A stretch of DNA of 62,021 bases. It comes from a virus (Duplodnaviria; Caudoviricetes). Location of the stretch: the IMG/VR virus record IMGVR_UViG_3300030109_004637, positions 1 to 62,021 of that record; one strand, 5' to 3'. Made by a program: the position numbers and the translations under genes. This document shows positions 15,391 to 48,690 of the stretch, piece by piece. The notes below the pieces were generated by a model. The model saw only the letters and a program-made list of their open reading frames with translations, made no database searches and had not been told where the DNA came from. Position 1 is the first letter of the stretch. Each line of letters opens with the position of its first letter.

Positions 15391-16656
15391 TTATTTATTG
15401 TTTTTAAGTTTAAATTTAAAACTAGCAGAATCATCACCCAATACTTTAACTTTTAAACCTCCAGTATCAATATCAGTATGAGATGATCTAGAGTCCATGT
15501 TTATGTTTTTAGATTTAGAAACACTATCCTTGATAGCATCAGCTTTACCTTGCTCATAAAAATGTTTAGCTATAGCATCAGAGTTCATTGCTGTAAATAA
15601 AGATTTATGATAACCCTTAGCATCTGACATTTCATTATTTTCATTTAGAAACTTTCTAATAAAATTATTAATGTCGCTTTGAGTATTTTTTACTTTATCA
15701 GCTTCTTTAACATTAAATCTATATCTTTTATCTCCAACATTATATTCAAAACCTTTGAACGTGTTAGAAAAAACTTCATTAGTTTTTTTATCAAATAAAG
15801 ATTTTTGTTTTTCTGCTAATTTTTGAGACTTTTCAGTCTCTTTGTTATAACGATTAAAAAAATCAATAGCTTTTTGTTGCTCAGGTGCTAACTTAGAACC
15901 CATCTTGATTTCTTCATAGTATCTAGACTTTTGCCCGTCTAGATGGCTTCTAGCATTGGCAACTTGCTCTTTAAATGCTAGTTTTTTTCTTTTAATATCT
16001 CTTTCATCATCAACATCTTCGTCATAAAGAAAATTATCTTCAATTAGAAAATTTATTTCATCGCTTGATAAATGAGGTTTTGTTTGTTTATAGTAATCTA
16101 ATAATAATGAATTATCATCAATCTTACTGTAATCTTGATTTAGTCTAACATAATCTTCTAGACTTCCTCCAGTTTCTTCCATAAATTCAACTACCTTTTG
16201 TATGTTTTCAGGTAATTTAACTCCAGTTTCTTTTTGTTCTTCTACAGCTTCTTTAACTTCTTCAGTTAACTCTTCTGTTTTTTCTTGAACTTGTTTTTCT
16301 TCCTCGTCTTTTATTTCTTCAAGTACAGGTTGTTCTTCTACCTTTTCTTCTTCTTTTTGTTCGGTAAGTTTTTCATTTGTTTCTTGCTTGTTTTCTTCAA
16401 GAACCTCTTTGCTAGCTTCGGGTTCGTCGCGAACAGAAACCTCATCTGTGCTTTGCTCTTCAACGGCATCTTCTTCTTTTTTTACTGGTGGTTTTGATAA
16501 GTCAATTTTTATAACATTATCATCTGATTGTTTTTTTAATGAAGGTCTACCCCTCTTTTTTTTAACTTGTACTTTTTCTTCAACAGGTTTTTCCTGTGTA
16601 GTAGTAGTAGACTCGTTTTTATCCACCACTACTTCTTCTATTGTTTTTTCTTCCAT
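15391..16656 (-). CDS. Capsid scaffolding protein
   Basis: 421 aa, very Glu-rich N-half, helical C-half, directly upstream of the capsid gene. Confidence 0.7.
   Translation of the reverse strand: MEEKTIEEVVVDKNESTTTTQEKPVEEKVQVKKKRGRPSLKKQSDDNVIKIDLSKPPVKKEEDAVEEQSTDEVSVRDEPEASKEVLEENKQETNEKLTEQKEEEKVEEQPVLEEIKDEEEKQVQEKTEELTEEVKEAVEEQKETGVKLPENIQKVVEFMEETGGSLEDYVRLNQDYSKIDDNSLLLDYYKQTKPHLSSDEINFLIEDNFLYDEDVDDERDIKRKKLAFKEQVANARSHLDGQKSRYYEEIKMGSKLAPEQQKAIDFFNRYNKETEKSQKLAEKQKSLFDKKTNEVFSNTFKGFEYNVGDKRYRFNVKEADKVKNTQSDINNFIRKFLNENNEMSDAKGYHKSLFTAMNSDAIAKHFYEQGKADAIKDSVSKSKNINMDSRSSHTDIDTGGLKVKVLGDDSASFKFKLKNNK
16338..16469 (-). CDS. Overprinted 43 aa basic peptide MPLKSKAQMRFLFATNPKLAKRFLKKTSKKQMKNLPNKKKKKR in the +1 frame of the scaffold gene
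   Basis: ATG at 16469, TAG at 16338-16340; coincides with a GC/CpG-rich patch in the scaffold gene; not in the ORF track. Confidence 0.65.
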   Translation of the reverse strand: MPLKSKAQMRFLFATNPKLAKRFLKKTSKKQMKNLPNKKKKKR

Positions 16657-16690
16657 GATATAATATAATATAAATTAAAAAATTGTTTTA

Positions 16691-18391
16691 TTATCCTTCT
16701 AGAGTTTCTATTCTAGATTTAAGATCCTCTATAATAACTTGTTGCTCTTGGATTGCTTTGACTAATCCTACATAAATTGCATTTTTTTCTAAACCAAATC
16801 TTTGATCACCGTCATAATCAAATTCCGATACTGATTCGGGAATTATCTCTTTTACCTCTTGAGCAATAAAACCAAATTGTTTCTTTGAGTTTTTATCTCC
16901 GTTTAACCAATTAAATTTTATTGATCTTAATTTTAATATTTCAGATAATCCGTAATCAATATTTTCAATGTTTGTTTTTAATCTTGAATCTGATGGATCA
17001 CTATTTGTTAAAATTCCTGCTCCTGTCGAAAAAACATCACCACTTCCTAAATCATTTACTTTTACAGATGTTGAATACATTTGCCCTGTAATATTAACAC
17101 CGGTTGCTACAATACTTGCAGTATTTGTAGCACCAGCTGTAAATATCATCTCATTATCGGAGCCATGAACATAAGTTATTCCACCTACATCAGCGTCAGC
17201 CGCATCTCCAAATTTAATAGCACATTGACCACTTCCCATAATACTCATACCCACTGAAGCCACACCGGGATCAATAATAAAATCGTCTGCTACTGATTCT
17301 GGAGATACTGTAGTAGCAGTCCCAGTTTTAAGTGTACCATTTGCTGTTAATGTACCTGAAAAAGTTGAATCATTACCAGCTATGTTAAGTGATGATACTT
17401 GACCACCATTAGCTAATGTCATTATTTCTAACTTAGTGTCTTCAGCGCCAGCAGAAGCATCAGTCATGATACCTCTTATTAAAACAGATTCTTTAACTGT
17501 ATTACCATTATTATCTCCATAAAAGTAAATTCTACCACTTTCATGATTATTTGCACCAGTGTCTGTATTTTGCAGAGCTAAAGTTCCACCACTTGTACTA
17601 TCAGCATCATCTTGTATGGTTACTGTAGCTCCTGTATCAGTAGTTGTTATATTACCTGCAAAAGTTGCATTGGCAGAAGCATCAAAACCTAAAGCTGTAG
17701 TATCAGGCGCTCCATCAGATGCACTTAACCGAAGTTGAAAAGTTCCTTGCGTTGTAGCATCAGCACCATAACATCTGATTTCTGAAGTTGCATTATCTTC
17801 TTGAGAAATTTTAATAGAACTCGCTGTGTGTGATAAATTTGCTCCTGTAGAAACAAATCTTGAAGCATTAACAATACCTGAAAAAGTTGCATTTTGACTA
17901 GAATCTAAAGTTAATGCTAAATTACCACCACCTGTTGTAAATTTAAGAGCACCACTTTCAGATCTCATTATAAAATCAGTATTAGCTGCACCACTTAATA
18001 AAGAAGTACCATTACCTATATAACCTGCAACTGTACTAGTATTATAAGCAAACTCAGTGTAACCAGAAGTTGCATTTGTAGTAGCAAAAGTAGTAATATC
18101 AGAAGATGAAGATGTTATTGTTGAGGTTACATTACTTACAGTAAAATTACCATCTACAACAAATCCAACATTAGCTGCTGCTGCTGCTGTATCTACAGTT
18201 GTAATTGTAAAAGCTCCATTAGCGGCTGCGGCAAGAGTGATAGTGTCATTTGCAGATGGCGTAAACACCAAATTTGCTGCTGCATCATTACCAATATTTA
18301 ATCCATCCAAATGAGCTAAAGACCAAAATTTACTTGATGTTCCCAATTGACCTTCACTATCATCGTTGGGTACTATGTTCTTTGTTGCCAT
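16691..18391 (-). CDS. Tail fibre/spike with C-terminal intramolecular chaperone (peptidase S74-like)
   Basis: Ala/Thr/Gly beta-rich repeats; SDSRLKTNI...GFIAQEV...coiled-coil C-terminus. Confidence 0.85.
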   Translation of the reverse strand: MATKNIVPNDDSEGQLGTSSKFWSLAHLDGLNIGNDAAANLVFTPSANDTITLAAAANGAFTITTVDTAAAAANVGFVVDGNFTVSNVTSTITSSSSDITTFATTNATSGYTEFAYNTSTVAGYIGNGTSLLSGAANTDFIMRSESGALKFTTGGGNLALTLDSSQNATFSGIVNASRFVSTGANLSHTASSIKISQEDNATSEIRCYGADATTQGTFQLRLSASDGAPDTTALGFDASANATFAGNITTTDTGATVTIQDDADSTSGGTLALQNTDTGANNHESGRIYFYGDNNGNTVKESVLIRGIMTDASAGAEDTKLEIMTLANGGQVSSLNIAGNDSTFSGTLTANGTLKTGTATTVSPESVADDFIIDPGVASVGMSIMGSGQCAIKFGDAADADVGGITYVHGSDNEMIFTAGATNTASIVATGVNITGQMYSTSVKVNDLGSGDVFSTGAGILTNSDPSDSRLKTNIENIDYGLSEILKLRSIKFNWLNGDKNSKKQFGFIAQEVKEIIPESVSEFDYDGDQRFGLEKNAIYVGLVKAIQEQQVIIEDLKSRIETLEG

Positions 18392-18404
18392 GTTTTATTT
18401 TTTT

Positions 18405-18737
18405 TTATTCACTAATATATTTTCTAACAACAGTTGGTGTTGCTTTTTCTTGTATTACTTCTTCAATTACACTTTTATAGTGATTTATTTGATCTGTACC
18501 AAGAGAAGTTTGAACCCAACCAGTTACATCAGATTCTTTTAAATCTGCAAACTCTGTAAAACTAGAAAGATCTGAGGTGTCTATTTCTGCAACACCAGTT
18601 GATGATGATAAGTTTTTTTCTTCCGTATCATCTACACCTGTTAGTTCCCAATATACTTTAAATATTACATCTGATTTACCACTTTTTGTTGGGTAGGTAT
18701 CTACAGATTTTGTGTCCCATGTATATGTTATTGCCAT
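18405..18737 (-). CDS. Tail-fibre-associated small protein
   Basis: 110 aa, MAITYTW...FADLKESDVTGWV; adjacent to the fibre gene. Confidence 0.55.
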   Translation of the reverse strand: MAITYTWDTKSVDTYPTKSGKSDVIFKVYWELTGVDDTEEKNLSSSTGVAEIDTSDLSSFTEFADLKESDVTGWVQTSLGTDQINHYKSVIEEVIQEKATPTVVRKYISE

Positions 18738-18764
18738 TGTTTTGTTATTTTATGTTTATATTTT

Positions 18765-19004
18765 TTATTTTGGTGTTAAATCTCCATTACCATCTACGTT
18801 CCAATAACCTTCTTCACCGGGTGAAACTGCAGGTGTTAGTTCTGTACTAGTTACATCCCATGAATCACTAAAGTCATAAGCAATACCATCTCTAGGTGTT
18901 AGCTCACCACCAACAACATCCCACACATAATCTTCTATTGCAGCAGCAGCAGATGCACCACTAGTTACGGAAGATAAATCTATGCTTAATCCTAACCCCG
19001 GCAT
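18765..19004 (-). CDS. Small protein with three W-(D/N)-V...LTP repeats
   Basis: WDVVGGELTP / WDVTSTELTP / WNVDGNGDLTP. Confidence 0.6.
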   Translation of the reverse strand: MPGLGLSIDLSSVTSGASAAAAIEDYVWDVVGGELTPRDGIAYDFSDSWDVTSTELTPAVSPGEEGYWNVDGNGDLTPK

Positions 19005-19372
19005 TAGTATCCTAAGTAAGCGATTACACCACCATCAGCATCAGCTGCTATTGTAAAAGTATCCCATCTACCAAATATCGTAAGACCTTTTGGAAATACA
19101 TTAGATGAATCTATAATTTTACCTCCAGAAGGACCCGGACTATCTCCAGCATTTGGTGTTGATGTACCACCAGCACCTACTTCTCCTGAAGCATTACCTA
19201 CACAAATACCAGCTTGACCATTAGTAGGTGAAAGTTCACTAAAAGTTGTATCTGCTAAAAATTGTATTGCAATTATTTTACGATCATCTGGTGGAACTAC
19301 TTGATCTGTATGATCAGTAAATATAGATCCATTTTGTCCAAAGTCATAACCTGTTCCGAAATGTATACTCAT
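19004..19372 (-). CDS. Putative structural protein
   Basis: 122 aa, FPKGLTIFGRW motif, downstream of the portal gene. Confidence 0.55.
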   Translation of the reverse strand: MSIHFGTGYDFGQNGSIFTDHTDQVVPPDDRKIIAIQFLADTTFSELSPTNGQAGICVGNASGEVGAGGTSTPNAGDSPGPSGGKIIDSSNVFPKGLTIFGRWDTFTIAADADGGVIAYLGY

Positions 19373-19399
19373 TTTGTTTTTGTTTTATTTATGTTTTAT

Positions 19400-21817
19400 T
19401 TATCTAGGATCAAAAGCACCTAAGTTAAAATTACCACCTAATATATCATTACCTGCTGACTCAAAGTTTTTAGGTGGTTTATCTTTTTTTCTTTGATCAA
19501 TTAATTCAGATTGTTGAGATGCTTGTATTTTTGTTCTTTCATCTTTACGATCTTCTTTTTCTTTTTCTCTATTTTTAAATGATTGAACCTCAATTTGTTT
19601 TAGTTGCATATTCATTTGAAATTCCAACTGCATCAATTCTTTTTTAGCAGCAACTTCTTGTTGCATTTTTTGTGCTTCTAATTGTGCCTTAAGTTGTTCT
19701 AATTGACTATCTACCTGAACTAAAGCTTGTTGTTTTTGTACCTCTGATTCTGCGGCGGCAGATTGTTGTGCGGCATTTGCTTGAGCTTGAGCTTGTATAT
19801 TTTGTTGAGCAACTTGTTGATCTCTTTGTTGTTTCTTTTTTCTTCTTAACTTTAAAACTTGATTAGCTAACTTAATATTATTTATTTCTCTTATATCAAT
19901 AGCATCTTCAAGATCTATAGTTTTTTGTTGAACAGCTACTTGAATATTATTTTCAAGCATTGCTTTTTCTTCTTCATCAGGTTTTAATTCAATAAATATA
20001 CCAAAATCATGCATATGCAAATTAGACATCTCTTCTAATGTAGCTACATTATGTACACCTATACTTTGTATAAAAGCTTCTTTTGTAGGAGAATATTCTA
20101 TTACATCAGATATTCTTAATGATAAGCATTCAGCTGTTTCAGCTGTTAAAAATAAACCTGATTGTAATATATGCCTTGTTGCTGTATTAGAATTAGCTGC
20201 TGCTATTTTTTGAAGACCTACTAAAGAATTTTTATCAGGAGTGCTACCATCTCTAGCTTCATTTAAGCCAGTAACATCTCTTATCATTTGTAAGTAATAA
20301 TTATAAGTTTGTATTAGTGTTTGCATTTTAGCTCCACCACTACCACTAGCTATTTCTTGTATAGGTACTTTTCCAGGATTAAGATCTCCATCTGAAGTAA
20401 GTGATCTACCTATAATACTACCAGTTTGAAAAAACATATTTAATGCTTCTTGAGGATTATAGTTTGTTCCATTACCAAGATCAACTTCAGCTATACCATC
20501 AGCATCTAAATAAACACCATCTGGTATCATCCTTGACATTACTTGCTGTAGCTTTAAATGAGTTAGCTGTATCATATCAGCAAAACCAGTTATTCTACTT
20601 ACTAGTGATTCTACTCTACCTTGATAAACTCTAGGAGCAACAATACTGTAATTCATTTTAACTTTAGTGTTATCACTTTTTGGCCTCATCATATTTTCAG
20701 CCATTTCCCATTTTAACAGCTTACTGCTACCTAAAGCCATAACACCTTCGTACAATACTTCTAATGATCTAGAAACTTTTTCAAAATTTTCATCTGATAC
20801 TTCAGATGGTGGGTTAAAGTTGTCATCTTTATTTATTGCTTTATTAGCACCAGTACCTGTAGTTTTTATTTTATAAACTTCATTCATATATGTTTTATAA
20901 TTAAAATATAAAACATCTATTTGATTATTATCTTTTTGATCGTACTGATACCTACTACTACGAGTTTTTACTGTAGTTGAATAATTTTGTATTTCCTTTA
21001 AATCTTCATTTGTTAGTTGAGGAAACTCTTTTTTTAATTCGTTTATTGGTACTGTTTTTATTTCGCCAACGTAATATATATCTTCAAAGTATGGTGACTC
21101 AGTATATGAATAAACTAAGTTTATTGGATCTACATATTCTATTTTTATGCCTTCAGATTTACTAAATGTATTTTTAATACAACCTATACCTAATACTGTT
21201 AAATCATAAAAAAATCTTTTTTTAGTTAATTCATATTTATTTTTTTCAAACAAAACATTTAAAGCTTGTTCTTCTGCTATTTCAATAGCTTGTTTGTAAG
21301 TTAACTGCATATGAAGCTCAAGTTCTTCTTTAGAATCTGGTAATTCTTCTTCTGGTGTTGATGCAAGGCTTACATTAAAATTTTCTTTAAAAAAACTGTC
21401 AAAGTTTTTAAGTCTCATGTCAGATAAAATACCCTCCATGTAATCAGTTCTTTTACTTATTCCATTTGGATCTTGAGAAAAAGCTTTTATGTCATAAGTT
21501 CTTTCAGAAATACCATTAACAACTATATCTACAAATTTAGGTATAATAGGTACTGGTTTCCAGTCTAAATTAAGATAAGATAAATCACCATTTATAGATA
21601 ATTCATCTTTATATTTTTGTATGGACTGCTCACCTCTAGCATAAAGTCTTAGTTTGTGATAATTATTATAATTAGTTCTATACCTGTGATTACCACTATC
21701 ACCGTAAAACCATTCAGTTTCTATAGCTCTAGCAACCTTAAGTCCATATTCTGGACTTATTTTTTCAAGATCACTAGCTACTTGGCTAGGAAAATAATTT
21801 TTAATAGAATCAGCCAT
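19400..21817 (-). CDS. Portal protein
   Basis: 805 aa; LRLYARGEQ, WKPVPIIPKFVDIVVNG, IRDVTGLNEARDG; Gln-rich barrel-like C-terminus; follows terL. Confidence 0.85.
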   Translation of the reverse strand: MADSIKNYFPSQVASDLEKISPEYGLKVARAIETEWFYGDSGNHRYRTNYNNYHKLRLYARGEQSIQKYKDELSINGDLSYLNLDWKPVPIIPKFVDIVVNGISERTYDIKAFSQDPNGISKRTDYMEGILSDMRLKNFDSFFKENFNVSLASTPEEELPDSKEELELHMQLTYKQAIEIAEEQALNVLFEKNKYELTKKRFFYDLTVLGIGCIKNTFSKSEGIKIEYVDPINLVYSYTESPYFEDIYYVGEIKTVPINELKKEFPQLTNEDLKEIQNYSTTVKTRSSRYQYDQKDNNQIDVLYFNYKTYMNEVYKIKTTGTGANKAINKDDNFNPPSEVSDENFEKVSRSLEVLYEGVMALGSSKLLKWEMAENMMRPKSDNTKVKMNYSIVAPRVYQGRVESLVSRITGFADMIQLTHLKLQQVMSRMIPDGVYLDADGIAEVDLGNGTNYNPQEALNMFFQTGSIIGRSLTSDGDLNPGKVPIQEIASGSGGAKMQTLIQTYNYYLQMIRDVTGLNEARDGSTPDKNSLVGLQKIAAANSNTATRHILQSGLFLTAETAECLSLRISDVIEYSPTKEAFIQSIGVHNVATLEEMSNLHMHDFGIFIELKPDEEEKAMLENNIQVAVQQKTIDLEDAIDIREINNIKLANQVLKLRRKKKQQRDQQVAQQNIQAQAQANAAQQSAAAESEVQKQQALVQVDSQLEQLKAQLEAQKMQQEVAAKKELMQLEFQMNMQLKQIEVQSFKNREKEKEDRKDERTKIQASQQSELIDQRKKDKPPKNFESAGNDILGGNFNLGAFDPR

Positions 21818-24032
21818 ATTGTTCTGTTATTATTTTAGATGACATGCCTTCGTTTTTATATTTAGCAAATCCAATATTTATTTTTCTTTTTTCTCTTTGT
21901 ATGTTTGGTGCATATAAATTTCTATTGCAAGCCATAACAGCTAAACCACTACTTATAGATGCATCAAATTTTGTTCTGTTATTTATGTCAAATTTTGACC
22001 AATCATTTAATGTTGTATTAAAATACATACTACCATAACTACCATCACTCTTTAAACCAACATTATTTTGTATATACATTTCAATAGCAGCAGCATGAGC
22101 CTGCTTCATGTCTTCACTAGAGTTAGGTATACCACCTATTTCTTTTTCTGTTATTGATAGTTTGTTCCAAATTTTATCTGGTCTATTCATAGAATAACCT
22201 CTATAACCTCTACGTCTTAAATAATACAAAAGCCTAGGCTTATTATTCTCTGCTAGTATTGGCATGCCATAAAATACAAGCGCCATTAATACATCTTCAA
22301 AAAATATTTCTGCAGTTTGAGGTCTAGCTAAATATTCTAAAAAGAAACTAGTACTTGGTGCTTCTTCCATTGAAAACTTTGTTAGTCCGTGTAAAGCTCC
22401 TTTAGAACCTTGACCGTCAACAGTACCAGATATATCATAACTATCACATCCAAAAGCACCGATATGTTCATTACCTGGTTTTTTACCGTTACTAGTTTGT
22501 ATTACTTTATTTTGCAAATGAGTTGGTGGCACCCAACTAATATTAAATCTACCTTTAGGATCTGGATAAAATATTACTTTTGAATCTTTAATACCATTTA
22601 CCCATTGAAAATTACCAGTTGTTATAGCTGAATTATTATTAACACCTTCATTATAATCTATTTGTTCGTATATTCTAGTTAAATTAAATATACTATTCTT
22701 AGTTTCATCTCTAAATGCATGCTCTTCTGTTCTAGGAAACTGTCTATAAAACTCATTTAAAGCATCAGGATCATTTTTTAAACCATCAACTTCATTTTGC
22801 CAATGATCTAATATACCTGTATCTATGTATTCCCCATAAGGTCCTTTAACTTCTTTTTCAGGTGTATCAAATACTGGCTGACCGTACTCATCAATAAACC
22901 CCTCGTAATTCCATTCCATAGGAATAAAAAGGCTATAAAGCCCAGAACTAGTTTGTCCATTTCTATTTCGTTTATTGACATCTGAATCTCTGTATAGTTT
23001 TTTAAAATTCTCACCACCTTTGTCTAAAGCATTAGACGTAGATCCCATCATACATTTACCTATAACTCTACTACCTAACCTTAACGTTGTTTTTGTGACT
23101 TGCCAGTTGTTGAGTATGTTGTTTGGCTTTTCCCACTTCCCTGATTCATCATGTACGAGGAGTTTAAGTTTTTCCCCATCGTAGGAGTTGTCGCCGGTAT
23201 TTTTCCAATCGATTGTGGTGTCCAATCCTTGTAAATCAGCTGGTCTTTCCGAACTCGTGATACTCCGTCTGGTAAGTTTTGATGCTGGTACTCTGAATGC
23301 AAGTTCTGTTTTAGGTCTATCCATACCGTCTTGGATTGGTTTGAAGAAGAAGGGGTAGTTGACAGATATTGGCACGACCTTGTCAGTGAACATCTTCTTA
23401 GCATCGGGTCCAGACTTGGACAAAATGCCGTACCTCGAATCACTGGATATTGTAGCAAGGTTAACCGATTCTCCACTTGCCATGAAAGAAAACCCTGATC
23501 TTCTGTTCTTAAGATAACACATCCCATAGGATCTTGCATCTGATTTACAAGCCTCCCAAAAGATGTAGAATAATCTATTGGCTTCACGATAATCTGGTTT
23601 CCCGACGTCAATTTTACTCCATTGCAAGTACATGTAATGAGCACCAGTAATATAAGTAGGGCAGCCGTTGTTATAGTACCATAAACCTTCTTCTCTAATT
23701 TTGAACTCATTTTCTATATATTCTATATGTTTTTCTTTAAAACTATTAGGATACTCCTTCCAATCAAATATTGTTTTTATTTTACTAAGTTCTTCTGGAC
23801 ACTCAGTATACTCCCATTTATTGCTTTTAAACTTAACAATATTAGTTTGTTTTGGTAAAGCTATTTTAAGATTTTGTATCTCATATACTTCACCTATTTG
23901 ACCGGTTTTACTAATTATAACAACATCATGTTCTTTGTTATAACCATACTCCCATTTTTTAGACTTGTTAAGTCTTGTTATTGTATTTAATTTAATTGGA
24001 GTTATAACCTTATATAAGGTTTGTTTATACAT
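21810..24032 (-). CDS. terL: Terminase large subunit
   Basis: Walker A-like KNRRSGFS, Walker B LLVHDESGK, nuclease motifs FGCDSYD and FDASISSG. Confidence 0.9.
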   Translation of the reverse strand: MYKQTLYKVITPIKLNTITRLNKSKKWEYGYNKEHDVVIISKTGQIGEVYEIQNLKIALPKQTNIVKFKSNKWEYTECPEELSKIKTIFDWKEYPNSFKEKHIEYIENEFKIREEGLWYYNNGCPTYITGAHYMYLQWSKIDVGKPDYREANRLFYIFWEACKSDARSYGMCYLKNRRSGFSFMASGESVNLATISSDSRYGILSKSGPDAKKMFTDKVVPISVNYPFFFKPIQDGMDRPKTELAFRVPASKLTRRSITSSERPADLQGLDTTIDWKNTGDNSYDGEKLKLLVHDESGKWEKPNNILNNWQVTKTTLRLGSRVIGKCMMGSTSNALDKGGENFKKLYRDSDVNKRNRNGQTSSGLYSLFIPMEWNYEGFIDEYGQPVFDTPEKEVKGPYGEYIDTGILDHWQNEVDGLKNDPDALNEFYRQFPRTEEHAFRDETKNSIFNLTRIYEQIDYNEGVNNNSAITTGNFQWVNGIKDSKVIFYPDPKGRFNISWVPPTHLQNKVIQTSNGKKPGNEHIGAFGCDSYDISGTVDGQGSKGALHGLTKFSMEEAPSTSFFLEYLARPQTAEIFFEDVLMALVFYGMPILAENNKPRLLYYLRRRGYRGYSMNRPDKIWNKLSITEKEIGGIPNSSEDMKQAHAAAIEMYIQNNVGLKSDGSYGSMYFNTTLNDWSKFDINNRTKFDASISSGLAVMACNRNLYAPNIQREKRKINIGFAKYKNEGMSSKIITEQYG
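22823..22960 (-). CDS. Possible second +1-frame peptide inside terL (MDKLVLGFIAFLFLWNG...)
   Basis: Same +1 frame as 23081-23710; hydrophobic N-terminus and basic C-terminus. Confidence 0.25.
   Translation of the reverse strand: MDKLVLGFIAFLFLWNGITRGLLMSTVSQYLIHLKKKLKDLMGNT
23081..23710 (-). CDS. Overprinted 209 aa protein with N-terminal signal/TM segment and Cys, in the +1 frame of terL
   Basis: 630 nt stop-free; local GC rise and C-ending terL codons; four stops within 12 codons from its end. Confidence 0.6.
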   Translation of the reverse strand: MSSKLEKKVYGTITTAALLILLVLITCTCNGVKLTSGNQIIVKPIDYSTSFGRLVNQMQDPMGCVILRTEDQGFLSWQVENRLTLLQYPVIRGTAFCPSLDPMLRRCSLTRSCQYLSTTPSSSNQSKTVWIDLKQNLHSEYQHQNLPDGVSRVRKDQLIYKDWTPQSIGKIPATTPTMGKNLNSSYMMNQGSGKSQTTYSTTGKSQKQR

Positions 24033-24035
24033 ATA

Positions 24036-24436: not shown

Positions 24437-24715
24437 TTATTTAGATCTTTTTTCTGCAAAACCACCAAATGACACATCTTTTTTTATATCAACTGGTATT
24501 TTGTTTTCTATTATGTTTTCTTCTTCTTCTATTCTTTTTAATATTTCAAAGGCATCAAAGATAGCAAGTTTTTTTGTTGCTGCTGCATTTTTTAATCTGT
24601 CTGCAGATATATCATCGTCTGAATCAACAATAGCTTCTTTAGCTACTTTTATTAATTCTTCAACCGCTACTTGCCCAGCTTGGATTATATTCTTCTTCGT
24701 TTCCTTTGTATTCAT
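24437..24715 (-). CDS. Helical protein, candidate terminase small subunit
   Basis: 92 aa helical ORF two genes upstream of terL; assignment is positional only. Confidence 0.4.
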   Translation of the reverse strand: MNTKETKKNIIQAGQVAVEELIKVAKEAIVDSDDDISADRLKNAAATKKLAIFDAFEILKRIEEEENIIENKIPVDIKKDVSFGGFAEKRSK

Positions 24716-25265
24716 ATTTAATTGTAATTTGACTAGTTAAAACTCTATATAGTCTTTCACCGTCAATAATAAATTCATAAGTGCTTATAGGTGTAAATCC
24801 AACTAAGTCACCTTCTTTTAAACCAAATTCTAAAAGTGCTTTGTTACTTTGTTTCAAAATACCTACACACTCTTTTTCTTGATTTGAAGAATATTTATCT
24901 GTAGATTTTATTGGTTTTACAAAACAAAAACCTTCTGTAGCTATCCACTTATTGTTTCTTTTATAAGAAAATATTTGATCTTCTTTTACACAATAAGTAT
25001 TTTCGTTTATATAACTTCTACTATTTTTTTCTTCAGCTTTTATATTATGCCATCTTCTAAATACATTATGATGAACTATTATTTCATCATCTACTTGTAT
25101 TTTAGTAGGTACAGCTATAGGTATTGATTTAACTATAGCTCTTCTACTAACATATTTATGGTTATATATTTCTGTATTAAGTATAAGTTTTTTATCACCT
25201 ATTTCTTTAACATTATTATATCTTGATTTCTTAGGTGATATAATAAAATCATATATACTTTGCAT
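24660..25265 (-). CDS. Hypothetical protein, possible tandem GroES-like fold
   Basis: Two beta-rich halves with IQVDDEIIVHH and LKEGDLVGF patterns resembling GroES. Confidence 0.45.
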   Translation of the reverse strand: MQSIYDFIISPKKSRYNNVKEIGDKKLILNTEIYNHKYVSRRAIVKSIPIAVPTKIQVDDEIIVHHNVFRRWHNIKAEEKNSRSYINENTYCVKEDQIFSYKRNNKWIATEGFCFVKPIKSTDKYSSNQEKECVGILKQSNKALLEFGLKEGDLVGFTPISTYEFIIDGERLYRVLTSQITIKYEYKGNEEEYNPSWASSG

Positions 25266-27418: not shown

Positions 27419-27676
27419 TTATTCGACAAGAACTACGTCTTGTGCTCTTATAATTTTATAAAGGGTGTCTTCATAGCTAATACCATGTCCTGCATGCTTG
27501 TCATAGTATACTATGTCTTTATCATTGACACCCTCGACCTTACTGCCGCAGCTGATAACCTTAGCTCTAATGTAACGATTATCCAGGTCTGTCTTCTCTG
27601 TGAAAATAAGTCCAGCAATCTTTTTTTGCTCTTCTTTTATATCACTTACTATTAAATAGTAATTAATTGCTTTCAT
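27419..27676 (-). CDS. groES: Co-chaperonin GroES
   Basis: 85 aa; mobile loop KKIAGLIF, AKVISCG, IIRAQDVV; overlaps the groEL stop. Confidence 0.85.
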   Translation of the reverse strand: MKAINYYLIVSDIKEEQKKIAGLIFTEKTDLDNRYIRAKVISCGSKVEGVNDKDIVYYDKHAGHGISYEDTLYKIIRAQDVVLVE

Positions 27677-35800: not shown

Positions 35801-36115
35801 ATGAATCCACATAAATATACTCTTACTGAAAAGCCATGCTTACAGTGTGGTAAGATGCACACAAGAAAAAAGTTTTGTTCACCATACTGTGGATCAAAGT
35901 ATAATGCAAACTATATGCGTAATACTATGGGTGTTGATGATCCAAGATTTTCATCAGCAAATATAAATTCTATAATTAAAGGTAAAGAATCACCTGTAGT
36001 AGATCATGGCTACAACTTTGTATTTTCAAGTAAAATAGAAGACTGGATAGGTAGTAGTACTAGGCGTAAAAGAGAGAGATATGCTGACAAAAGAAAAGCT
36101 AAACTAATAAAATAA
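35801..36115 (+). CDS. Zinc-finger protein
   Basis: CLQCG...FCSPYC. Confidence 0.65.
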   Translation: MNPHKYTLTEKPCLQCGKMHTRKKFCSPYCGSKYNANYMRNTMGVDDPRFSSANINSIIKGKESPVVDHGYNFVFSSKIEDWIGSSTRRKRERYADKRKAKLIK

Positions 36116-37544: not shown

Positions 37545-37931
37545 ATGGAAACCGAAGAAAAAGTAGCAGCCGTGCTCAATCATTACGGCACAACAATCAC
37601 ACACGATTATAATGATATTGGCAATGCAGAATATGTAATGTATACAGATATAACTAGAGATGGTTATGATTTATATGTAGCTAAATTTAATGGCGAACCA
37701 AGAACCATATGGCCAAGCGATGGCGCATTATATTTATCTGAACATGTTTGCATGTATGACCATGACTTATGCCAAATACTTATACAAGAGATACGTAGAG
37801 AAGGTTTTGAAATGTATATTGAAACTGATATATATGATAAATGCCATTTTGATGATGTACTTCAAGATGAATTTTATTATCTACAAGACAATGATAAAGA
37901 GTTCTTAGATAAATATCCAATGGAAGAATAA
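37545..37931 (+). CDS. Highly acidic protein
   Basis: 128 aa, D/E/Y-rich, follows the promoter copy at 37483. Confidence 0.7.
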   Translation: METEEKVAAVLNHYGTTITHDYNDIGNAEYVMYTDITRDGYDLYVAKFNGEPRTIWPSDGALYLSEHVCMYDHDLCQILIQEIRREGFEMYIETDIYDKCHFDDVLQDEFYYLQDNDKEFLDKYPMEE

Positions 37932-38589: not shown

Positions 38590-38636
38590 TGTGACAATAG
38601 GTTATTATAATAATAGGGTAAGGGGCTAATGTCACA
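38590..38636. promoter_or_regulatory. Dyad site 3, overlapping the start codon of the HTH gene
   Basis: TGTGACAATAGG...GCTAATGTCACA; ATG at 38629 lies inside the right arm. Confidence 0.7.
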
Positions 38637-39255
38637 TAGGAATCTTAATTATTTACATCGAAACAGAGTAGCATATAAGATGTTTCCTACTTCAGATAAA
38701 CCTACAAAAACTTTTACTTGGGGTTATTTTTTTGAAAACGGTACGCATCAATGCTATGATCTGTTTCGTAGTAAAGCCAAGATTACATCTTATAAGTCTC
38801 TTAAATGGCACATGTATGTTTTATATTATATTAATCCGCATGTATCAGATATTAGAATGAAAAAAATAATAGACTACATATGTAACAAAGACAATGGATT
38901 CATTACATTTACAGTTAAGGACAATATTAAAGACAGTATGATATCTGATGTTCTTGCTTCTGATTTAAATGAACCACCAAAAAATAAATTAAGAAAAGTT
39001 ATATTCAAAGACTCTACAGGTTTATCTACAAAACAAAAATTAAAGATAGTTGGAGAGTTAATAGGTAAAACTAAAATAGTTAATAATGATGACATTTACG
39101 AGTGCATGTTAGAAATTAATAACTCAAACAGAAGAATTACAATAGCTAATTTAGCTAAAATATTAGGTTGTTCCTCAAGAACCATACATAGAAATATGGA
39201 TAAACAACTAAAAAGAGAAAAGGATATACTTAATATTCAAAATGAAGAAATATAA
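38629..39255 (+). CDS. DNA-binding protein with C-terminal HTH (regulator or replication initiator)
   Basis: RITIANLAKILGCSSRTIHRNM. Confidence 0.7.
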   Translation: MSHRNLNYLHRNRVAYKMFPTSDKPTKTFTWGYFFENGTHQCYDLFRSKAKITSYKSLKWHMYVLYYINPHVSDIRMKKIIDYICNKDNGFITFTVKDNIKDSMISDVLASDLNEPPKNKLRKVIFKDSTGLSTKQKLKIVGELIGKTKIVNNDDIYECMLEINNSNRRITIANLAKILGCSSRTIHRNMDKQLKREKDILNIQNEEI

Positions 39256-41353: not shown

Positions 41354-41355
41354 TT

Positions 41356-41664: not shown

Positions 41665-41667
41665 TAG

Positions 41668-43380: not shown

Positions 43381-43385
43381 ATTAT

Positions 43386-45076: not shown

Positions 45077-45363
45077 AAAAGCCTGAAAGCATAAATATAG
45101 AGTTTAGGGATCCTGTTGTAAAACGTGTTGTACAAAAGTTTGTAGACAGATCAAATGTAGGTTTTAAAAAGTATGGCAGAACATTAAATAGTGAAAGATT
45201 AGGTGGTCACAAAGACTTAGTTGCTTACCTAAATGATATACAAGAAGAGTTAATGGATGCAATACTATATATACAGACTGCACGCGAAGAGCTAGCTGAT
45301 CTTAGAGAAGATGCGCTTGTCCGTAAATTAAAAGAAAAATATGGCGAATCGTTTGAAGATTAG
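45073..45363 (+). CDS. All-alpha NTP-pyrophosphatase-like protein
   Basis: GFKKYGRTL...IQEELMDAILY. Confidence 0.55.
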   Translation: MKKPESINIEFRDPVVKRVVQKFVDRSNVGFKKYGRTLNSERLGGHKDLVAYLNDIQEELMDAILYIQTAREELADLREDALVRKLKEKYGESFED

Positions 45364-45814
45364 AAGAAAAAAAGGTCCAGTTGTAGCAAAAAAAATAACT
45401 TATAATAATATAACTTTTGCTTCTGGTCTTGAGAAATATATGTATATCGCTTTAAAAAAAGCAAAAATTAAATTTAAATATGAAGGAGAAAGTTTTATAT
45501 TGGTTAAATCATTTAATGTTAACCGTGCGACTTATGAACGCCAGAATAATGGAAAAGGTGAATATATTGATAGAGGAAATAAAAAAATTCTAGGTATAAA
45601 ATATACGCCTGATTTTGTAGGTAAAGATTTTATAATAGAAACAAAAGGTAGAGCTAATGAGTCTTTTCCTATGAGATGGAAGTTATTTAAAAAACATCTT
45701 ATGGAAATAGGTGACAATAGGCTACTATATAAACCACAAACCAACAAGGAGTGTGACAGAACTGTAGAATTAATAACAAGAAAAAGAACATGGGATTATT
45801 TGAAGAAAGAATAG
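45341..45814 (+). CDS. Endonuclease I-like (T7 gp3-type PD-(D/E)XK) nuclease
   Basis: FASGLE...YE...YTPDF...IIETKG. Confidence 0.8.
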   Translation: MANRLKIRRKKGPVVAKKITYNNITFASGLEKYMYIALKKAKIKFKYEGESFILVKSFNVNRATYERQNNGKGEYIDRGNKKILGIKYTPDFVGKDFIIETKGRANESFPMRWKLFKKHLMEIGDNRLLYKPQTNKECDRTVELITRKRTWDYLKKE

Positions 45815-46749
45815 AATACAAACCTTTTGAGTACCCTGAGTATTATACTGAGGGTTGGTTGAAACAAGCTCAAGCATTTTGGTTACATACTGAAATACCA
45901 ATGTCAGGTGATGTTAAAGATTGGAACGAAAAATTAACACCTGAAGAAAAAAATCTAGTAGGTAATATATTATTAGGTTTTGCACAGACCGAGTGTGCAG
46001 TATCAGATTACTGGACGCAAAATGTAGTATCATGGTTTCCAAAACATGAAATACAACAAATGGCTATGATGTTTGGTTCGCAAGAAACAATACATGCAGT
46101 AGCTTATAGTTATTTAAACGAAACATTAGGATTAGATGATTTTCAAGCGTTTTTACATGAGCCTGCAACGGCTGAGAGATTTGATAATCTCGTTGGATAC
46201 ACCGGTACCGAAAAGTTGGGGATTGCACGATCGCTTGCAATCTTTTCCGCTTTTGCTGAGGGTGTTAGCCTTTATAGTGCTTTTGCTGTGTTATATTCTT
46301 TCCAACTTCGTAATCTTCTTAAAGGAATTGGTCAGCAAATGAAGTGGAGTGTAAGAGATGAAAGTTTACATAGTAAAATGGGTTGTAGGCTATTTAATCA
46401 TATGTGTGAAGAACATACTGAATTAAGAGTTCAAGCTGGACCAGCTATAAAATCTGCTGCAGAAGTAATGGTTGAATTAGAAGAAAAGTATATTGACAAG
46501 ATGTTTGAAATGGGTGATGTTGAAGGTATAAAAGCTTTTGACTTAAAACAGTTTATAAGAAAAAGATGTAATGAAAAGCTCAGAGAACTAGGATATACTG
46601 ATATGTTTACTTTTGAAGAAAAAGCCGCAGCAGAACTTGATTGGTTTTATCACTTAACTGGTGGTCACACACATACAGACTTTTTTGCAATGAGACCTAC
46701 TGATTATAGTAAAGCTAATGAAGGAGAAGATTTCGAAGATATTTGGTAA
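45790..46749 (+). CDS. nrdB: Ribonucleotide reductase class Ia beta subunit
   Basis: FW..E, ETIHAVAY, AEGV, RDESLH, TDFF. Confidence 0.92.
   Translation: MGLFEERIEYKPFEYPEYYTEGWLKQAQAFWLHTEIPMSGDVKDWNEKLTPEEKNLVGNILLGFAQTECAVSDYWTQNVVSWFPKHEIQQMAMMFGSQETIHAVAYSYLNETLGLDDFQAFLHEPATAERFDNLVGYTGTEKLGIARSLAIFSAFAEGVSLYSAFAVLYSFQLRNLLKGIGQQMKWSVRDESLHSKMGCRLFNHMCEEHTELRVQAGPAIKSAAEVMVELEEKYIDKMFEMGDVEGIKAFDLKQFIRKRCNEKLRELGYTDMFTFEEKAAAELDWFYHLTGGHTHTDFFAMRPTDYSKANEGEDFEDIW
46136..46342 (+). CDS. Possible overprinted 68 aa membrane peptide in the +1 frame of nrdB
   Basis: Local shift to CTC/CTT/TCG/ACC codons in nrdB; C-terminal hydrophobic helix. Confidence 0.4.
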   Translation: MIFKRFYMSLQRLRDLIISLDTPVPKSWGLHDRLQSFPLLLRVLAFIVLLLCYILSNFVIFLKELVSK

Positions 46750-46984
46750 AATAGAAAAACAACTTGTTAGAAGAAGAAGTCTTTCTCCTTGGGAGAAGAT
46801 GTATGAAAGAATAGGTTATATGGGTAGTGGTTTTTTAATTGCTGCTCAATGGTCTATATCAGCTGAACTTTATGTAGTAGGATTTATATTAGTTATGGTT
46901 CAGACAAGTTCAAGAAGACAATGGAATTTAGTAATATTAAATCTAAACGGTTTAATAGCTTGGTTAATACACCTTTTAAAATAA
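46718..46984 (+). CDS. Small membrane protein
   Basis: Hydrophobic segments in the C-terminal half; lies between nrdB and nrdA. Confidence 0.6.
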   Translation: MKEKISKIFGKIEKQLVRRRSLSPWEKMYERIGYMGSGFLIAAQWSISAELYVVGFILVMVQTSSRRQWNLVILNLNGLIAWLIHLLK

Positions 46985-46989
46985 AATAA

Positions 46990-48690
46990 ATGACTAGTAG
47001 TAATAGATGGATTAAAGGAGAAGATTACCCTGCGTGGGCAGATGGTGATGTTTATAAAAAAACAATACAAGGAGGTTACTTACTTCCTGATGAAACACCG
47101 CGTGATGCATATATGCGTGTTGCTAAGACCGTCTCGAGGCGTTTAGACAAGCCAGAGATGGCAGATAAATTTTTTGAATACATATGGCATGGCTGGTTGT
47201 GTTTGGCATCTCCTGTGTTGTCTAATACAGGAACTGATAGAGGCTTACCAATTAGCTGTTTTGGTATTGATGTAGCAGATTCAATATATGATATAGGCAC
47301 TAAAAACCTAGAGATGATGTTACTTGCAAAGCACGGTGGAGGTGTAGGTATTGGTATTAACCAAATCAGACCTGCAGGTTCAACTATAACAGGTAACGGC
47401 ACATCAGATGGTGTTGTACCTTTTTGTAAAATATATGATTCAACTATATTAGCAACAAATCAAGGATCAGTAAGACGTGGTGCTGCTAGTGTTAACTTAA
47501 ATATAGAACATTCAGACTTTGAAGACTGGTTAGATATTAGAGAACCTAAAGGCGATGTAAATAGACAATCACTTAACATGCATCAATGTGCTATTATAGG
47601 TGATAAGTTTATGCGTAAGTTAACTGCAGGTGATAAAGTTGCAAGAAGAAAATGGAGTGCACTTTTACAAAAGCGTAAAGCAACAGGTGAACCTTATATA
47701 ATGTTTAAAGGTAATGTTAACAAAGTAAACCCTCCAGCATATAAGGATAACGCTTTAAAAGTATTTATGACAAACATATGCTCTGAGATAGCACTACATA
47801 CAGATGAGAACCATAGCTTTGTATGTTGTTTGTCTAGTTTAAACCTAGCTAAGTACGATGAGTGGAAAGATACAAACTTAATATATGATAGTACTTTCTT
47901 TTTAGATGGTGTTATGGAAGAGTTTATACAAAGAGCTAAAGGTTTAAAAGGTTTTGAAAATGCAGTCAGATCTGCTGATAAAGGTAGAGCAATAGGTCTA
48001 GGTGTATTAGGTTGGCATACATATTTACAAGAAAAAAATCTACCATTTGAGGGATTATTAGCGCAACATGAAACACGAAGAATATTTAGCCAAATTAAAA
48101 TCGAAAGCGAACGAGCTAGTATGGCTCTTGCTAATCAGTACGGGGAACCGCTCTGGTGTGTTGGTACGGGATTTAGGAACACTCATCTTAGAGCTATTGC
48201 TCCTACTGTTAGTAACAGTAAGCTTAGTGGTAATATTAGTGCCGGCATTGAACCTTGGGCTGCTAATGTATTTACTGAGCAGAGTGCAAAAGGTACTTTC
48301 ATACGTAAAAACCCTACTCTGGAAAAAGTCTTAGATAAATTAAATATGAATACTAGTGAAGTTTGGGAGAAGATATTAGCTGACGGTGGATCCGTACAGG
48401 ATGTCAAAGGACTTGACGATGAAACTAAAGAGGTATTTAAAACATTTAAAGAACTTAATCAGCTAGAAATAGTTAATCAAGCAGGTATAAGACAACAATA
48501 CATAGATCAAAGTGTTAGTTTAAATCTAGCATTTCCATCTCAAGTAGATCCTAAATTTATTAATAAGGTTCATCTTGAAGCTTGGAAAAAAGGTATTAAA
48601 ACTTTATATTATATGAGAACAGAATCAGTTCTTCGTGGTGATATAGCTGAAAAAGCCATGGATGAAGATTGTTTAAGTTGTGATGGCTAG
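46990..48690 (+). CDS. nrdA: Ribonucleotide reductase class Ia alpha subunit
   Basis: ASPVLSN, ISCF, QGSVRRGA, TNICSEI, AIAPT, IDQSVSLN, KTLYY, C-terminal CLSC. Confidence 0.95.
   Translation: MTSSNRWIKGEDYPAWADGDVYKKTIQGGYLLPDETPRDAYMRVAKTVSRRLDKPEMADKFFEYIWHGWLCLASPVLSNTGTDRGLPISCFGIDVADSIYDIGTKNLEMMLLAKHGGGVGIGINQIRPAGSTITGNGTSDGVVPFCKIYDSTILATNQGSVRRGAASVNLNIEHSDFEDWLDIREPKGDVNRQSLNMHQCAIIGDKFMRKLTAGDKVARRKWSALLQKRKATGEPYIMFKGNVNKVNPPAYKDNALKVFMTNICSEIALHTDENHSFVCCLSSLNLAKYDEWKDTNLIYDSTFFLDGVMEEFIQRAKGLKGFENAVRSADKGRAIGLGVLGWHTYLQEKNLPFEGLLAQHETRRIFSQIKIESERASMALANQYGEPLWCVGTGFRNTHLRAIAPTVSNSKLSGNISAGIEPWAANVFTEQSAKGTFIRKNPTLEKVLDKLNMNTSEVWEKILADGGSVQDVKGLDDETKEVFKTFKELNQLEIVNQAGIRQQYIDQSVSLNLAFPSQVDPKFINKVHLEAWKKGIKTLYYMRTESVLRGDIAEKAMDEDCLSCDG
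48068..48334 (+). CDS. Possible overprinted 88 aa membrane protein in the +1 frame of nrdA
   Basis: nrdA Leu codons switch to CTT/CTC/CTG here; long hydrophobic core with basic ends. Confidence 0.5.
   Translation: MKHEEYLAKLKSKANELVWLLLISTGNRSGVLVRDLGTLILELLLLLLVTVSLVVILVPALNLGLLMYLLSRVQKVLSYVKTLLWKKS

What the first reader, a model, noticed from the sequence alone, without database searches (positions are those of the whole stretch)
16338..48334. A hidden layer of genes in the +1 frame of core genes (scaffold, terL, nrdB, nrdA)
Seen: five same-strand nested ORFs all sit exactly +1 to their host gene (16338-16469, 22823-23017, 23081-23710, 46136-46342, 48068-48334). In at least four, the host gene locally drops the TTA/ATA/GTA codons followed by a purine that create +1 stops elsewhere, and becomes visibly GC-richer. 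Known: lambda Rz1 and phiX174 E are +1 overprinted envelope/lysis genes. Inference: this phage systematically hides small membrane or basic proteins inside its most conserved genes, where gene callers miss them. Caveat: T-ending host codons make +1 peptides hydrophobic automatically, so hydrophobicity alone is weak evidence.
Basis: partly seen in the sequence, partly recalled or inferred. Interest (0 to 1): 0.85.

Follow-up and report, generated by a model that had tools for sequence, protein, structure and literature searches.

The report
Hidden +1-frame genes inside phage genes
A marine phage carries extra genes written in a shifted reading frame inside its terminase, ribonucleotide reductase and scaffold-like genes, and dozens of diverged relatives keep these shifted frames open far more than chance allows, so most are probably real, unannotated proteins.

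Summary
All five nested ORFs exist at the stated coordinates and sit +1 to their host genes. In the window alone, synonymous shuffling singles out three. The terL ORF (210 codons) has p<2e-4, nrdB about 0.001 and nrdA 0.002-0.007. The scaffold ORF (p about 0.5) and the second terL ORF look ordinary.

About 80 IMG/VR homologs per gene (60-90% protein identity) decide the matter.
- **terL ORF (209 aa):** stop-free in 18 of 82 sequences, where 233 stops were expected and 0 seen. GC3 doubles exactly within the ORF, and the N-terminus is a signal-like helix under +1-specific selection.
- **nrdA and nrdB ORFs:** NTA codons are avoided only where they would create a +1 stop.
- **Scaffold ORF:** it encodes a peptide better conserved than the host frame, and 8 of 8 versions match phrog_1375.
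- **Controls:** the +2 frame and the portal gene show no such depletion.

Verdict: at least four of the five are genuine overprinted genes. The second terL ORF is uncertain. Translation and function are untested. These are new members of a known kind (Rz1- or phiX174 E-type embedded genes), in unusual host genes.

The parts
23081..23710 (-). terL-embedded +1 ORF1, 209 aa. It has an N-terminal signal- or anchor-like helix followed by a polar region predicted to be disordered.
   Evidence: The ORF is listed. Shuffle p<2e-4. In the 18 of 82 homologs that keep it, 0 stops were seen against 233 expected. A shuffle within the region gives P(0 stops)<=0.0025 in 18 of 18. The GC3 rise is bounded by the ORF. 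+1-specific fixed sites number 18 of 213 inside against 1 of 429 outside. AF2 gives a helix at residues 3-30 and pLDDT<50 for the rest.
22823..23017 (-). terL-embedded +1 ORF2, 64 aa, GTG start. Status uncertain.
   Evidence: The frame is open in most of 82 homologs: 22 stops seen against 128 expected. NTA before a purine is 21/224, against 246/481 before a pyrimidine. Only 2-3 sites carry this signal. There is no conserved start or hydrophobic segment, and the start context is poor.
48068..48334 (+). nrdA-embedded +1 ORF, 88 aa. It has a basic N-terminus, a long hydrophobic helix and a basic C-terminus.
   Evidence: Shuffle p=0.002-0.007. In class 1 (35 sequences), 17 stops were seen against 185 expected at host codons 361-440. 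Codon choice depends on context. 68 distinct ATG-started ORFs of >=80 aa lie at this place among 80 homologs. AF2 gives a single helix at 3-87 with pLDDT 86.
46136..46342 (+). nrdB-embedded +1 ORF, 68 aa, with hydrophobic segments.
   Evidence: Shuffle p about 0.001. 50 of 81 homologs have <=1 stop in the region, and 25 of 81 have stops at the expected rate. NTA codons make up 165/360 before a pyrimidine. Hydropathy and T3 are raised only in the open group.
16338..16469 (-). 43-aa basic peptide in the +1 frame of the acidic linker of the scaffold-like gene; a phrog_1375 member.
   Evidence: phrog_1375 match at E=1.4e-4, and 7 of 7 diverged versions hit the same family at E=1e-5 to 4e-3. The peptide is present in 42 of 81 homologs, with identity 0.73 against 0.62 for the host frame over the same bases. 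Start context is at the 91st percentile.
21810..24032 (-). Host gene: terminase large subunit (740 aa).
   Evidence: phrog_6681, E=3.9e-169.
45790..46749 (+). Host gene: ribonucleotide reductase small subunit (319 aa).
   Evidence: phrog_86, E=4.8e-73.
46990..48690 (+). Host gene: ribonucleotide reductase large subunit (566 aa).
   Evidence: phrog_84, E=1.1e-153.
15391..16656 (-). Host gene: 421-aa protein with an acidic low-complexity N-terminal part. 'Scaffold' is inferred from position only.
   Evidence: No PHROG hit at 1e-5. It lies between a tail-fibre gene and a virion structural protein gene.

Best explanation
At least four of the five nested ORFs are genuine overprinted genes: extra proteins read in the +1 frame of terL, nrdA, nrdB and the scaffold-like gene. 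They are most likely made by independent internal initiation on the host gene's mRNA, in a phage whose genes lack Shine-Dalgarno sites and have A-rich leaders. Four things are shown. Selection keeps these frames free of stops in many diverged relatives. Host codon choice bends to the needs of the +1 frame. Hydrophobic segments and particular +1 residues are preserved. One product belongs to an existing phage protein family, phrog_1375. The rest is inferred. The 209-aa terL-embedded protein would be exported or membrane-anchored through its N-terminal signal-like helix: lysines, then about 15 hydrophobic residues, then small residues around a selected Cys. A disordered polar tail follows. The nrdA and nrdB products would be small helical membrane proteins. 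The scaffold product would be a very basic peptide. My guess at function is accessory envelope-directed roles, such as exclusion, lysis timing or host-surface effects. They are probably not essential, because the terL and nrdB ORFs are present in some lineages and replaced or lost in close relatives.
For: **terL ORF1.**
- Its 210 open codons compare with a shuffle maximum of 163 in 5000 shuffles.
- Of 82 terL sequences, 18 have 0 stops in the region (233 expected). Another 13 keep >=160 codons from the same start.
- Shuffling codons within the region alone still expects 3.6-6.5 stops, with P(0)<=0.0025 in 18 of 18.
- GC3 is 0.50 inside and 0.25 outside in these 18. It is 0.25 and 0.24 in the 45 sequences with >=8 stops.
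- The GC3 rise starts and ends with the ORF. In truncated versions it falls back right after the first stop, for example L070 at 0.50 then 0.28.
- A at host position 3 is 0.04 against 0.27 across the hydrophobic helix.
- Position 3 is fixed in ORF-bearers but not in the others in 18 of 213 columns inside, against 1 of 429 outside.
- NTA codons are still 121/250 before pyrimidines.
- The start context is at the 97th percentile of 990 internal out-of-frame ATGs.
- A profile search finds 146 cluster representatives. The 10 I checked all map to terL in the +1 frame.

**nrdA.** Class 1 (35 sequences, not selected on this region) has 17 stops against 185 expected. NTA before a purine is 15/304, against 110/191 before a pyrimidine. 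At single sites the codon switches with the next base, for example CTT before a purine and TTA before T.

**nrdB.** 50 of 81 sequences have <=1 stop, with varied non-stop codons at 9 sites. 25 of 81 have stops at the expected rate.

**Scaffold ORF.**

**Controls.** +2-frame windows in the four genes give obs/exp of 0.70-1.61. The portal gene (81 sequences) gives 0.70-1.43 in +1, with a longest open stretch of 62 codons.
Against:
- Synonymous variability in the middle of terL ORF1 is not reduced (1.13-1.22). Only the two ends are (0.68-0.83), and dips of that size also occur elsewhere (0.63 at codons 441-460).
- The terL group A and the nrdB 'open' group were defined by lack of stops, so their zero counts are partly circular. 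Non-circular support comes from the local shuffles, GC3 boundaries, NTA-before-pyrimidine rates, and the unselected sets (nrdA class 1 and the all-sequence counts).
- The homologs are not independent. On a tree of the region itself, the open and broken states need only 2 changes, so the 18 terL carriers may share one origin of the segment.
- Start contexts of the nrdA, nrdB and ORF2 starts are not gene-like (26th-46th percentile).
- Four of the five products have no Pfam or PHROG family.
- The AF2 model of ORF1 is of low confidence (mean pLDDT 40).
Confidence: 0.8

Rival explanations
1. Chance and composition: T-ending host codons, purine-rich stretches and a few lucky codon choices give open +1 frames that code for nothing.
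For: The scaffold ORF is ordinary by shuffling (p=0.39-0.52), because the acidic, purine-rich region has few stops in any frame. The 66-codon second terL stretch is near the shuffle mean of 61 and has only 2-3 potential stop sites. Hydrophobicity is partly automatic.
Against: terL ORF1 is never reached in 5000 shuffles. Stop depletion recurs in dozens of homologs with about 45% of synonymous codons changed. The +2 frame and the portal gene show nothing similar. The scaffold peptide matches a PHROG family in 8 of 8 versions.
Confidence: 0.05
2. A non-coding cause: recombined GC-richer patches, local codon optimisation or RNA structure remove NTA codons and so open the +1 frame as a by-product.
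For: The terL segment does recombine. Nearest neighbours inside and outside the region differ, and the open/broken states need 7 changes on the flank tree against 2 on the region tree. GC3 is raised in all the ORF regions.
Against: NTA codons stay common inside the regions when the next base is a pyrimidine (0.44-0.58) and vanish only before purines. Shuffling within the region still predicts 3.6-6.5 stops. The GC3 rise ends at each lineage's own stop codon. A is excluded at +1 position 2 only in the hydrophobic segments. The RNA fold z-score is 0.25 and there is no Rfam match.
Confidence: 0.08
3. The +1 frames are read, but by programmed +1/-2 ribosomal frameshifting from the host frame. This would give trans-frame fusion proteins rather than separate products.
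For: All five ORFs are in the +1 frame. ORF2 lacks a conserved start codon. The nrdA and nrdB starts have poor contexts. Some database proteins join the terL frame and the +1 frame, though these need an indel in the DNA and may be assembly errors.
Against: In most carriers terL ORF1 begins with an ATG directly after a +1 stop, at the same host codon (107/108). The signal-like helix sits at its very N-terminus, where only a free N-terminus would make it useful. The nrdA ORFs start at a conserved ATG followed by lysine in both classes. I did not search for a slippery site.
Confidence: 0.07

Closest known systems
Lambda Rz1 (o-spanin embedded in Rz) and T7 18.7 in 18.5 (recalled from knowledge, not from a call)
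   Same: A same-strand ORF fully embedded in the +1 frame of a phage gene. The product has an N-terminal export signal with a cysteine and a polar mature part.
   Different: The host gene is terL, not an i-spanin gene. The ORF is 209 aa, much longer as I recall than Rz1 (about 60 aa). The residue before the selected Cys is Thr, not Gly/Ala/Ser. Proline is only about 6%. The ORF is present in only part of the lineage.
phiX174 E inside D (recalled)
   Same: The nrdA and nrdB products resemble E in being short and dominated by a hydrophobic helix.
   Different: The peptide embedded in the scaffold-like gene here is basic, not hydrophobic. This is a 62-kb dsDNA genome with no obvious size pressure. 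No lysis function is shown.
phrog_1375 (PHROGs v4, unknown function)
   Same: The 43-aa scaffold-embedded peptide and 7 diverged versions match profile positions about 17-64 of 70.
   Different: Here the gene lies inside another ORF. I could not see whether other members stand alone. The family was not found in 4 of 5 related records searched.
Codon-permutation detection of overlapping genes in viruses (PMC6188560; I saw only the search listing and the start of the abstract)
   Same: The same logic as the shuffle test used here.
   Different: That work is a method paper. Nothing in the listings seen describes ORFs embedded in terL or nrd genes.

Membership tests
Overprinted (embedded, out-of-frame) phage gene | The ORF lies wholly inside another gene, on the same strand, in a different frame. 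| tested here: met
   all five ORFs.
Overprinted (embedded, out-of-frame) phage gene | The open frame is kept in diverged relatives beyond what chance and composition allow. | tested here: met
   terL ORF1, nrdA and nrdB: with controls. The scaffold ORF is met through peptide conservation. ORF2 is only weakly met.
Overprinted (embedded, out-of-frame) phage gene | The second frame is translated. | not testable with these tools
   No proteomic or ribosome-profiling data are available. RNA runs hold only small shares, kept as contigs.
o-spanin (Rz1-like) | Lipoprotein signal with a canonical lipobox (small residue before Cys). | tested here: inconclusive
   The hydrophobic helix is followed by C-T-C-S/N-G. 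Thr28, Cys29 and Ser30 are selected, but Thr at -1 is not canonical. The host codons allow only Thr or Ile there. No lipoprotein predictor was available.
o-spanin (Rz1-like) | Embedded in, or next to, an i-spanin gene within a lysis cassette. | tested here: not met
   The host gene is terL. The 10 ORFs upstream of terL give no lysis family.
Holin-like small membrane protein (nrdA and nrdB products) | A small protein with transmembrane helix or helices and a charged C-terminus, next to an endolysin gene, or a match to a holin family. | tested here: inconclusive
   A hydrophobic helix and basic ends are present. There is no Pfam or PHROG holin match, and the host genes are nucleotide-metabolism genes.
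phrog_1375 | Significant match to the family profile. | tested here: met
   8 of 8 versions match, E=1e-5 to 4e-3, at the same profile span. The own-genome scan hits 16332-16493.

The most novel reading that the evidence does not exclude
This lineage of marine phages maintains a second coding layer in the +1 frame of its most conserved enzyme genes. Under this reading the proteins were born de novo, are exported or membrane-inserted, and differ between sub-lineages. nrdA carries 88-aa or 114-156-aa versions, and the scaffold linker carries at least three different peptides. They are swapped by recombination inside the host gene and act as accessory envelope effectors. The terL-embedded 209-aa exported protein would then be an unusually long out-of-frame embedded gene for a tailed phage, sitting in the ATPase domain of the terminase.
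Probability: 0.35. Interest if true: 0.85.

Novelty: new member of a known kind. Interest (0 to 1): 0.75.

Why it matters
Gene callers discard ORFs nested inside longer genes, so proteins like these are missing from phage annotations and from protein databases built on them. Here four or five such genes are supported by comparative evidence in one 62-kb genome. They lie inside genes, terL and the ribonucleotide reductase genes, that I recall being widely used as conserved phylogenetic markers. Two consequences follow. Synonymous sites in these markers are not neutral in the overlap regions. Recombination patches inside terL may be driven by the embedded gene rather than by terL itself. If the products are envelope-directed, they are candidates for unknown lysis, exclusion or host-manipulation functions in phages whose relatives infect Flavobacteriia. 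They would also be clean examples of de novo gene birth by overprinting in dsDNA phages.

Tried and rejected
- **Family searches.** Pfam and PHROGs on the five products gave only the phrog_1375 hit. The other matches are below threshold.
- **Protein Atlas.** No usable hit for ORF1.
- **tblastn against cultured phages.**
  - ORF1 matches only the +1 frame of terL in MW202828.1, which has 10 stops there.
  - The scaffold peptide gave 1 weak hit.
  - A longer version of the scaffold peptide gave none.
- **Word-indexed protein search.** It found 11 relatives of ORF1, all of similar length, and 2 relatives of the scaffold peptide.
- **Stand-alone relatives of ORF1.** The profile search gave 146 representatives. 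The 10 I checked, mostly the longest ones, map to terL, and several are mixtures of the terL frame and the +1 frame. I found no stand-alone relative.
- **RNA-level explanations.** No Rfam family matches in the window, and the fold z-score of the ORF1 region is 0.25.
- **Sequencing runs.** DNA holders are marine metagenomes. RNA runs hold 0.05-0.14 of the words, as contigs only. I did not lay them, so they are no evidence of expression.
- **Canonical lysis genes next to terL.** None of the 10 ORFs searched gave one. The rest of the genome was not scanned.
- **Structure.** The AF2 model of ORF1 is too poor for a fold search, and the nrdA product is a single helix.
- **Lipoprotein reading of ORF1.** Considered but not adopted, because the lipobox is non-canonical.
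- **Reading ORF2 as a gene.** Not adopted.
- **Closed or delayed tools.** One collection scan failed because the machine was busy and was repeated.
- **Literature.** Three searches listed general overlapping-gene papers and nothing on terL- or nrd-embedded ORFs. I saw listings and abstract starts only, and no supplements.
Full report
**What is in the sequence.** The window is a complete 62,021-base IMG/VR virus record of about 30% GC. Its terminase is most like that of an uncultured podovirus (62% identity). Next come Flavobacterium elemo phages at 45%, then Cellulophaga and Tenacibaculum phages (87 records matched). The host genes are terL (phrog_6681), nrdB (phrog_86) and nrdA (phrog_84). 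The fourth is a 421-aa protein with an acidic linker and no PHROG match. It is called scaffold only from its position next to a virion structural protein gene.

**One genome alone.** Across 81 ORFs, the longest +1 open stretch is usually 15-60 codons. terL, at 210, is the single large outlier. Synonymous shuffling (5000 per gene) gives these results:
- terL: p<2e-4, with a shuffle maximum of 163 codons.
- nrdB: p=0.0008-0.0018.
- nrdA: p=0.0018-0.0044.
- Scaffold ORF: p=0.39-0.52.

Over the 47 genes of >=100 codons, +1 reaches p<0.01 in 3 genes and p<0.05 in 7. The +2 frame reaches p<0.05 in 1 gene, which also has p<0.01.

**Comparative sets.**
- The search for related loci returned 80 IMG/VR homologs each for terL, the scaffold gene, nrdB, nrdA and, as a control, portal.
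- In each case these are the best 80 of 595-600 confirmed matches. Identities were 74-82% (terL), 57-94% (scaffold), 81-92% (nrdB), 77-91% (nrdA) and 70-98% (portal).
- I took the longest ORF of each locus, aligned the proteins, threaded the codons, and counted +1 stops. Expected numbers came from each sequence's own codon usage.
- No homolog was dropped. The GenBank relative L001 was added to terL, giving 82 rows.
- For terL contrasts I used group A (0 stops at host codons 110-312, n=18) and group B (>=8 stops, n=45). The 19 intermediate sequences are left out of A/B contrasts but shown. One member of each identical pair (L054, L029) was dropped.

**terL ORF1 (23081-23710).**
- *Stop depletion.* Group A has 0 stops where 233 are expected. 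Group B has 509 where 594 are expected.
- *Shorter versions.* Another 13 sequences keep >=160 codons from the same start, and 2 keep 117-138.
- *Local composition does not explain it.* Shuffling codons within the region alone still expects 3.6-6.5 stops, with P(0)<=0.0025 in 18 of 18.
- *GC3 shift.* GC3 is 0.50 inside and 0.25 outside in A. It is 0.25 and 0.24 in B.
- *Boundaries.* The rise begins near codon 121 and ends near codon 320.
- *Truncated versions.* GC3 falls to background just after each sequence's own first stop: L070 0.50 then 0.28, L080 0.48 then 0.26, L022 0.33 then 0.17.
- *Hydrophobic helix.* Over host codons 121-140, A at host position 3 (the second position of the +1 codon) is 0.04 in A against 0.27 in B.
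- *Site-specific selection.* Position 3 is >=85% fixed in A but <=45% in B, with the same host residue, in 18 of 213 columns inside against 1 of 429 outside. These sites cluster at ORF residues 18-37 and 170-200.
- *NTA codons.* They remain at 121/250 before pyrimidines.
- *Synonymous variability.* It is lowered at the two ends (0.68-0.83) but not in the middle (1.13-1.22). Dips of similar size occur elsewhere.
- *Recombination.* A and B are interleaved on a tree of the flanks, which needs 7 changes. A tree of the region needs 2, and nearest neighbours differ inside and outside. The segment therefore recombines. The region tree may be pulled together partly by shared composition.

**nrdA (48068-48334).**
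- The sequences fall into two classes, defined by stops at codons 290-356.
- Class 1 (35 sequences, including the window) was not selected on the ORF region. It has 17 stops against 185 expected at codons 361-440.
- Ile, Leu and Val codons switch with the next base. At codon 412, CTT is used before a purine in 21 sequences, and TTA or CTA before T in 10. At codon 438, ATA precedes C in 20 sequences.
- Overall, NTA is 15/304 before purines and 110/191 before pyrimidines.
- Class 2 (46 sequences) carries a longer version of 114-156 aa from host codon about 289, sharing the hydrophobic core.
- In all, 68 distinct ATG-started ORFs of >=80 aa lie at this place among 80 homologs.

**nrdB (46136-46342).**
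- 50 of 81 sequences have <=1 stop in the region. Nine potential sites show 0 of 50 stops, with varied non-stop codons.
- 25 of 81 have stops at about the expected rate. Six have exactly 2 and were left out.
- In the open group, NTA is still 165/360 before pyrimidines.
- Hydropathy at host codons 160-179 is raised only in the open group: 2.33 against 0.85, and 0.70 against -0.46.

**Scaffold ORF (16338-16469).**
- The shuffle test has no power here, because the acidic, purine-rich linker has few stops in any frame.
- The +1 peptide is present in 42 of 81 homologs whose host proteins are about 60-94% identical to the window's.
- Its mean pairwise identity is 0.73, against 0.62 for the host frame over the same bases. 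Its first 24 residues are nearly invariant.
- The window's version and 7 of 7 diverged versions match phrog_1375 over the same profile span.
- Other homologs carry different conserved +1 peptides at this spot.

**terL ORF2 (22823-23017).**
- Stops are depleted in all 82 sequences (22 against 128 expected). NTA before a purine is 21/224, against 246/481 before a pyrimidine.
- Two sites carry nearly all of this signal: V352 with 9 of 81 stops, and I380 with 3 of 82, although ATA makes up 63% of Ile codons.
- There is no conserved start codon or hydrophobic segment, and the GTG start context is poor.
- I leave it open at roughly even odds.

**Controls.** In the same four genes, +2-frame windows range from 0.70 to 1.61. 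The portal gene (81 sequences) ranges from 0.70 to 1.43 in +1 and from 0.74 to 1.45 in +2. Its longest +1 open stretch in any sequence is 62 codons.

**What the products look like.**
- *ORF1.* Three lysines in the first 8 residues, about 15 hydrophobic residues, then C-T-C-S/N-G with the second Cys, the Thr and the Ser selected. AF2 gives a helix at residues 3-30 and pLDDT<50 afterwards. The tail is 21% Ser+Thr, 15% Gln+Asn and 12% Lys+Arg.
- *nrdA product.* A basic N-terminus, about 35 hydrophobic residues and a basic C-terminus, modelled as one helix with pLDDT 86.
- *Start contexts.* Real genes in this genome have A-rich leaders and no Shine-Dalgarno site. The ORF1 and scaffold ORF starts score at the 97th and 91st percentile of 990 internal out-of-frame ATGs. 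The nrdB, nrdA and ORF2 starts score at the 46th, 26th and 34th.

**Rivals.**
- *Chance* is excluded for three ORFs and unlikely for the fourth.
- *A non-coding cause* does not explain avoidance of NTA only before purines. Nor does it explain the lineage-specific GC3 boundaries, the missing RNA signal, or the residue-level selection.
- *Frameshift products* cannot be excluded, especially for ORF2. For ORF1 and nrdA they fit poorly with the conserved ATGs and N-terminal signal features.

**Comparison and novelty.** By architecture these are Rz1-, 18.7- or phiX174 E-type embedded genes (recalled). They do not meet the spanin definition: the host gene is wrong and the lipobox is non-canonical. 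ORF1 has relatives only inside terL, which fits birth by overprinting. Three literature searches (listings and abstract starts only) showed nothing on such ORFs in terL or nrd genes. I rate them as new members of a known kind.

**Main limits.** There is no evidence of translation. The homologs are related to one another. The A and 'open' groups are partly defined by the trait itself.

Noticed in passing
window 10887-12032 (-): A 59-codon open stretch in the +2 frame of this 381-aa gene. It is the only +2 case of 47 genes with shuffle p<0.01 (p=0.002).
   Followed up: no
window 35801-36115, 37545-37931, 38629-39255, 45341-45814 (+): Further +1 open stretches of 53, 75, 62 and 45 codons, with shuffle p about 0.02 each. 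They may be more members of the same layer, or chance.
   Followed up: no
nrdA homologs of class 2, e.g. L254:1157-1621: 46 of 81 nrdA homologs carry a longer embedded +1 ORF (114-156 aa). They also have a second stop-free +1 region at host codons 141-240, with 31 stops seen against 277 expected, which the window lacks.
   Followed up: partly
scaffold homologs, e.g. L117, L089 (host codons about 53-115): Homologs without the phrog_1375 peptide carry at least two other conserved +1 peptides in the same acidic linker. The linker appears to host different embedded ORFs in different lineages.
   Followed up: partly
proteins P0024, P0026, P0034, P0036, P0041, P0090: These database proteins are part terL frame and part +1 frame. 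The underlying contigs must carry an indel near the ORF1 boundaries. Whether these are assembly errors, defective genomes or natural variants is unexplained.
   Followed up: partly
window 46718-46984 (+): An 88-aa ORF between nrdB and nrdA that overlaps the end of nrdB by 32 bases and has hydrophobic stretches. It is not nested and I did not study it.
   Followed up: no
window, starts of 57 genes: Gene starts have A-rich leaders (A 0.6-0.7 at -3 to -14) and no Shine-Dalgarno motif. As I recall, this is typical of Bacteroidota and their phages.
   Followed up: partly
window 2091-10883 (-) and 51767-60379 (-): Two giant ORFs of 2930 and 2870 aa. Neither shows an unusual +1 or +2 open stretch.
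   Followed up: no
window 24660-25265 and 27419-27676 (-): Two GroES-like co-chaperonin genes (phrog_13932, phrog_3188) upstream of terL. The elemo phage record also annotates GroES and GroEL genes.
   Followed up: no
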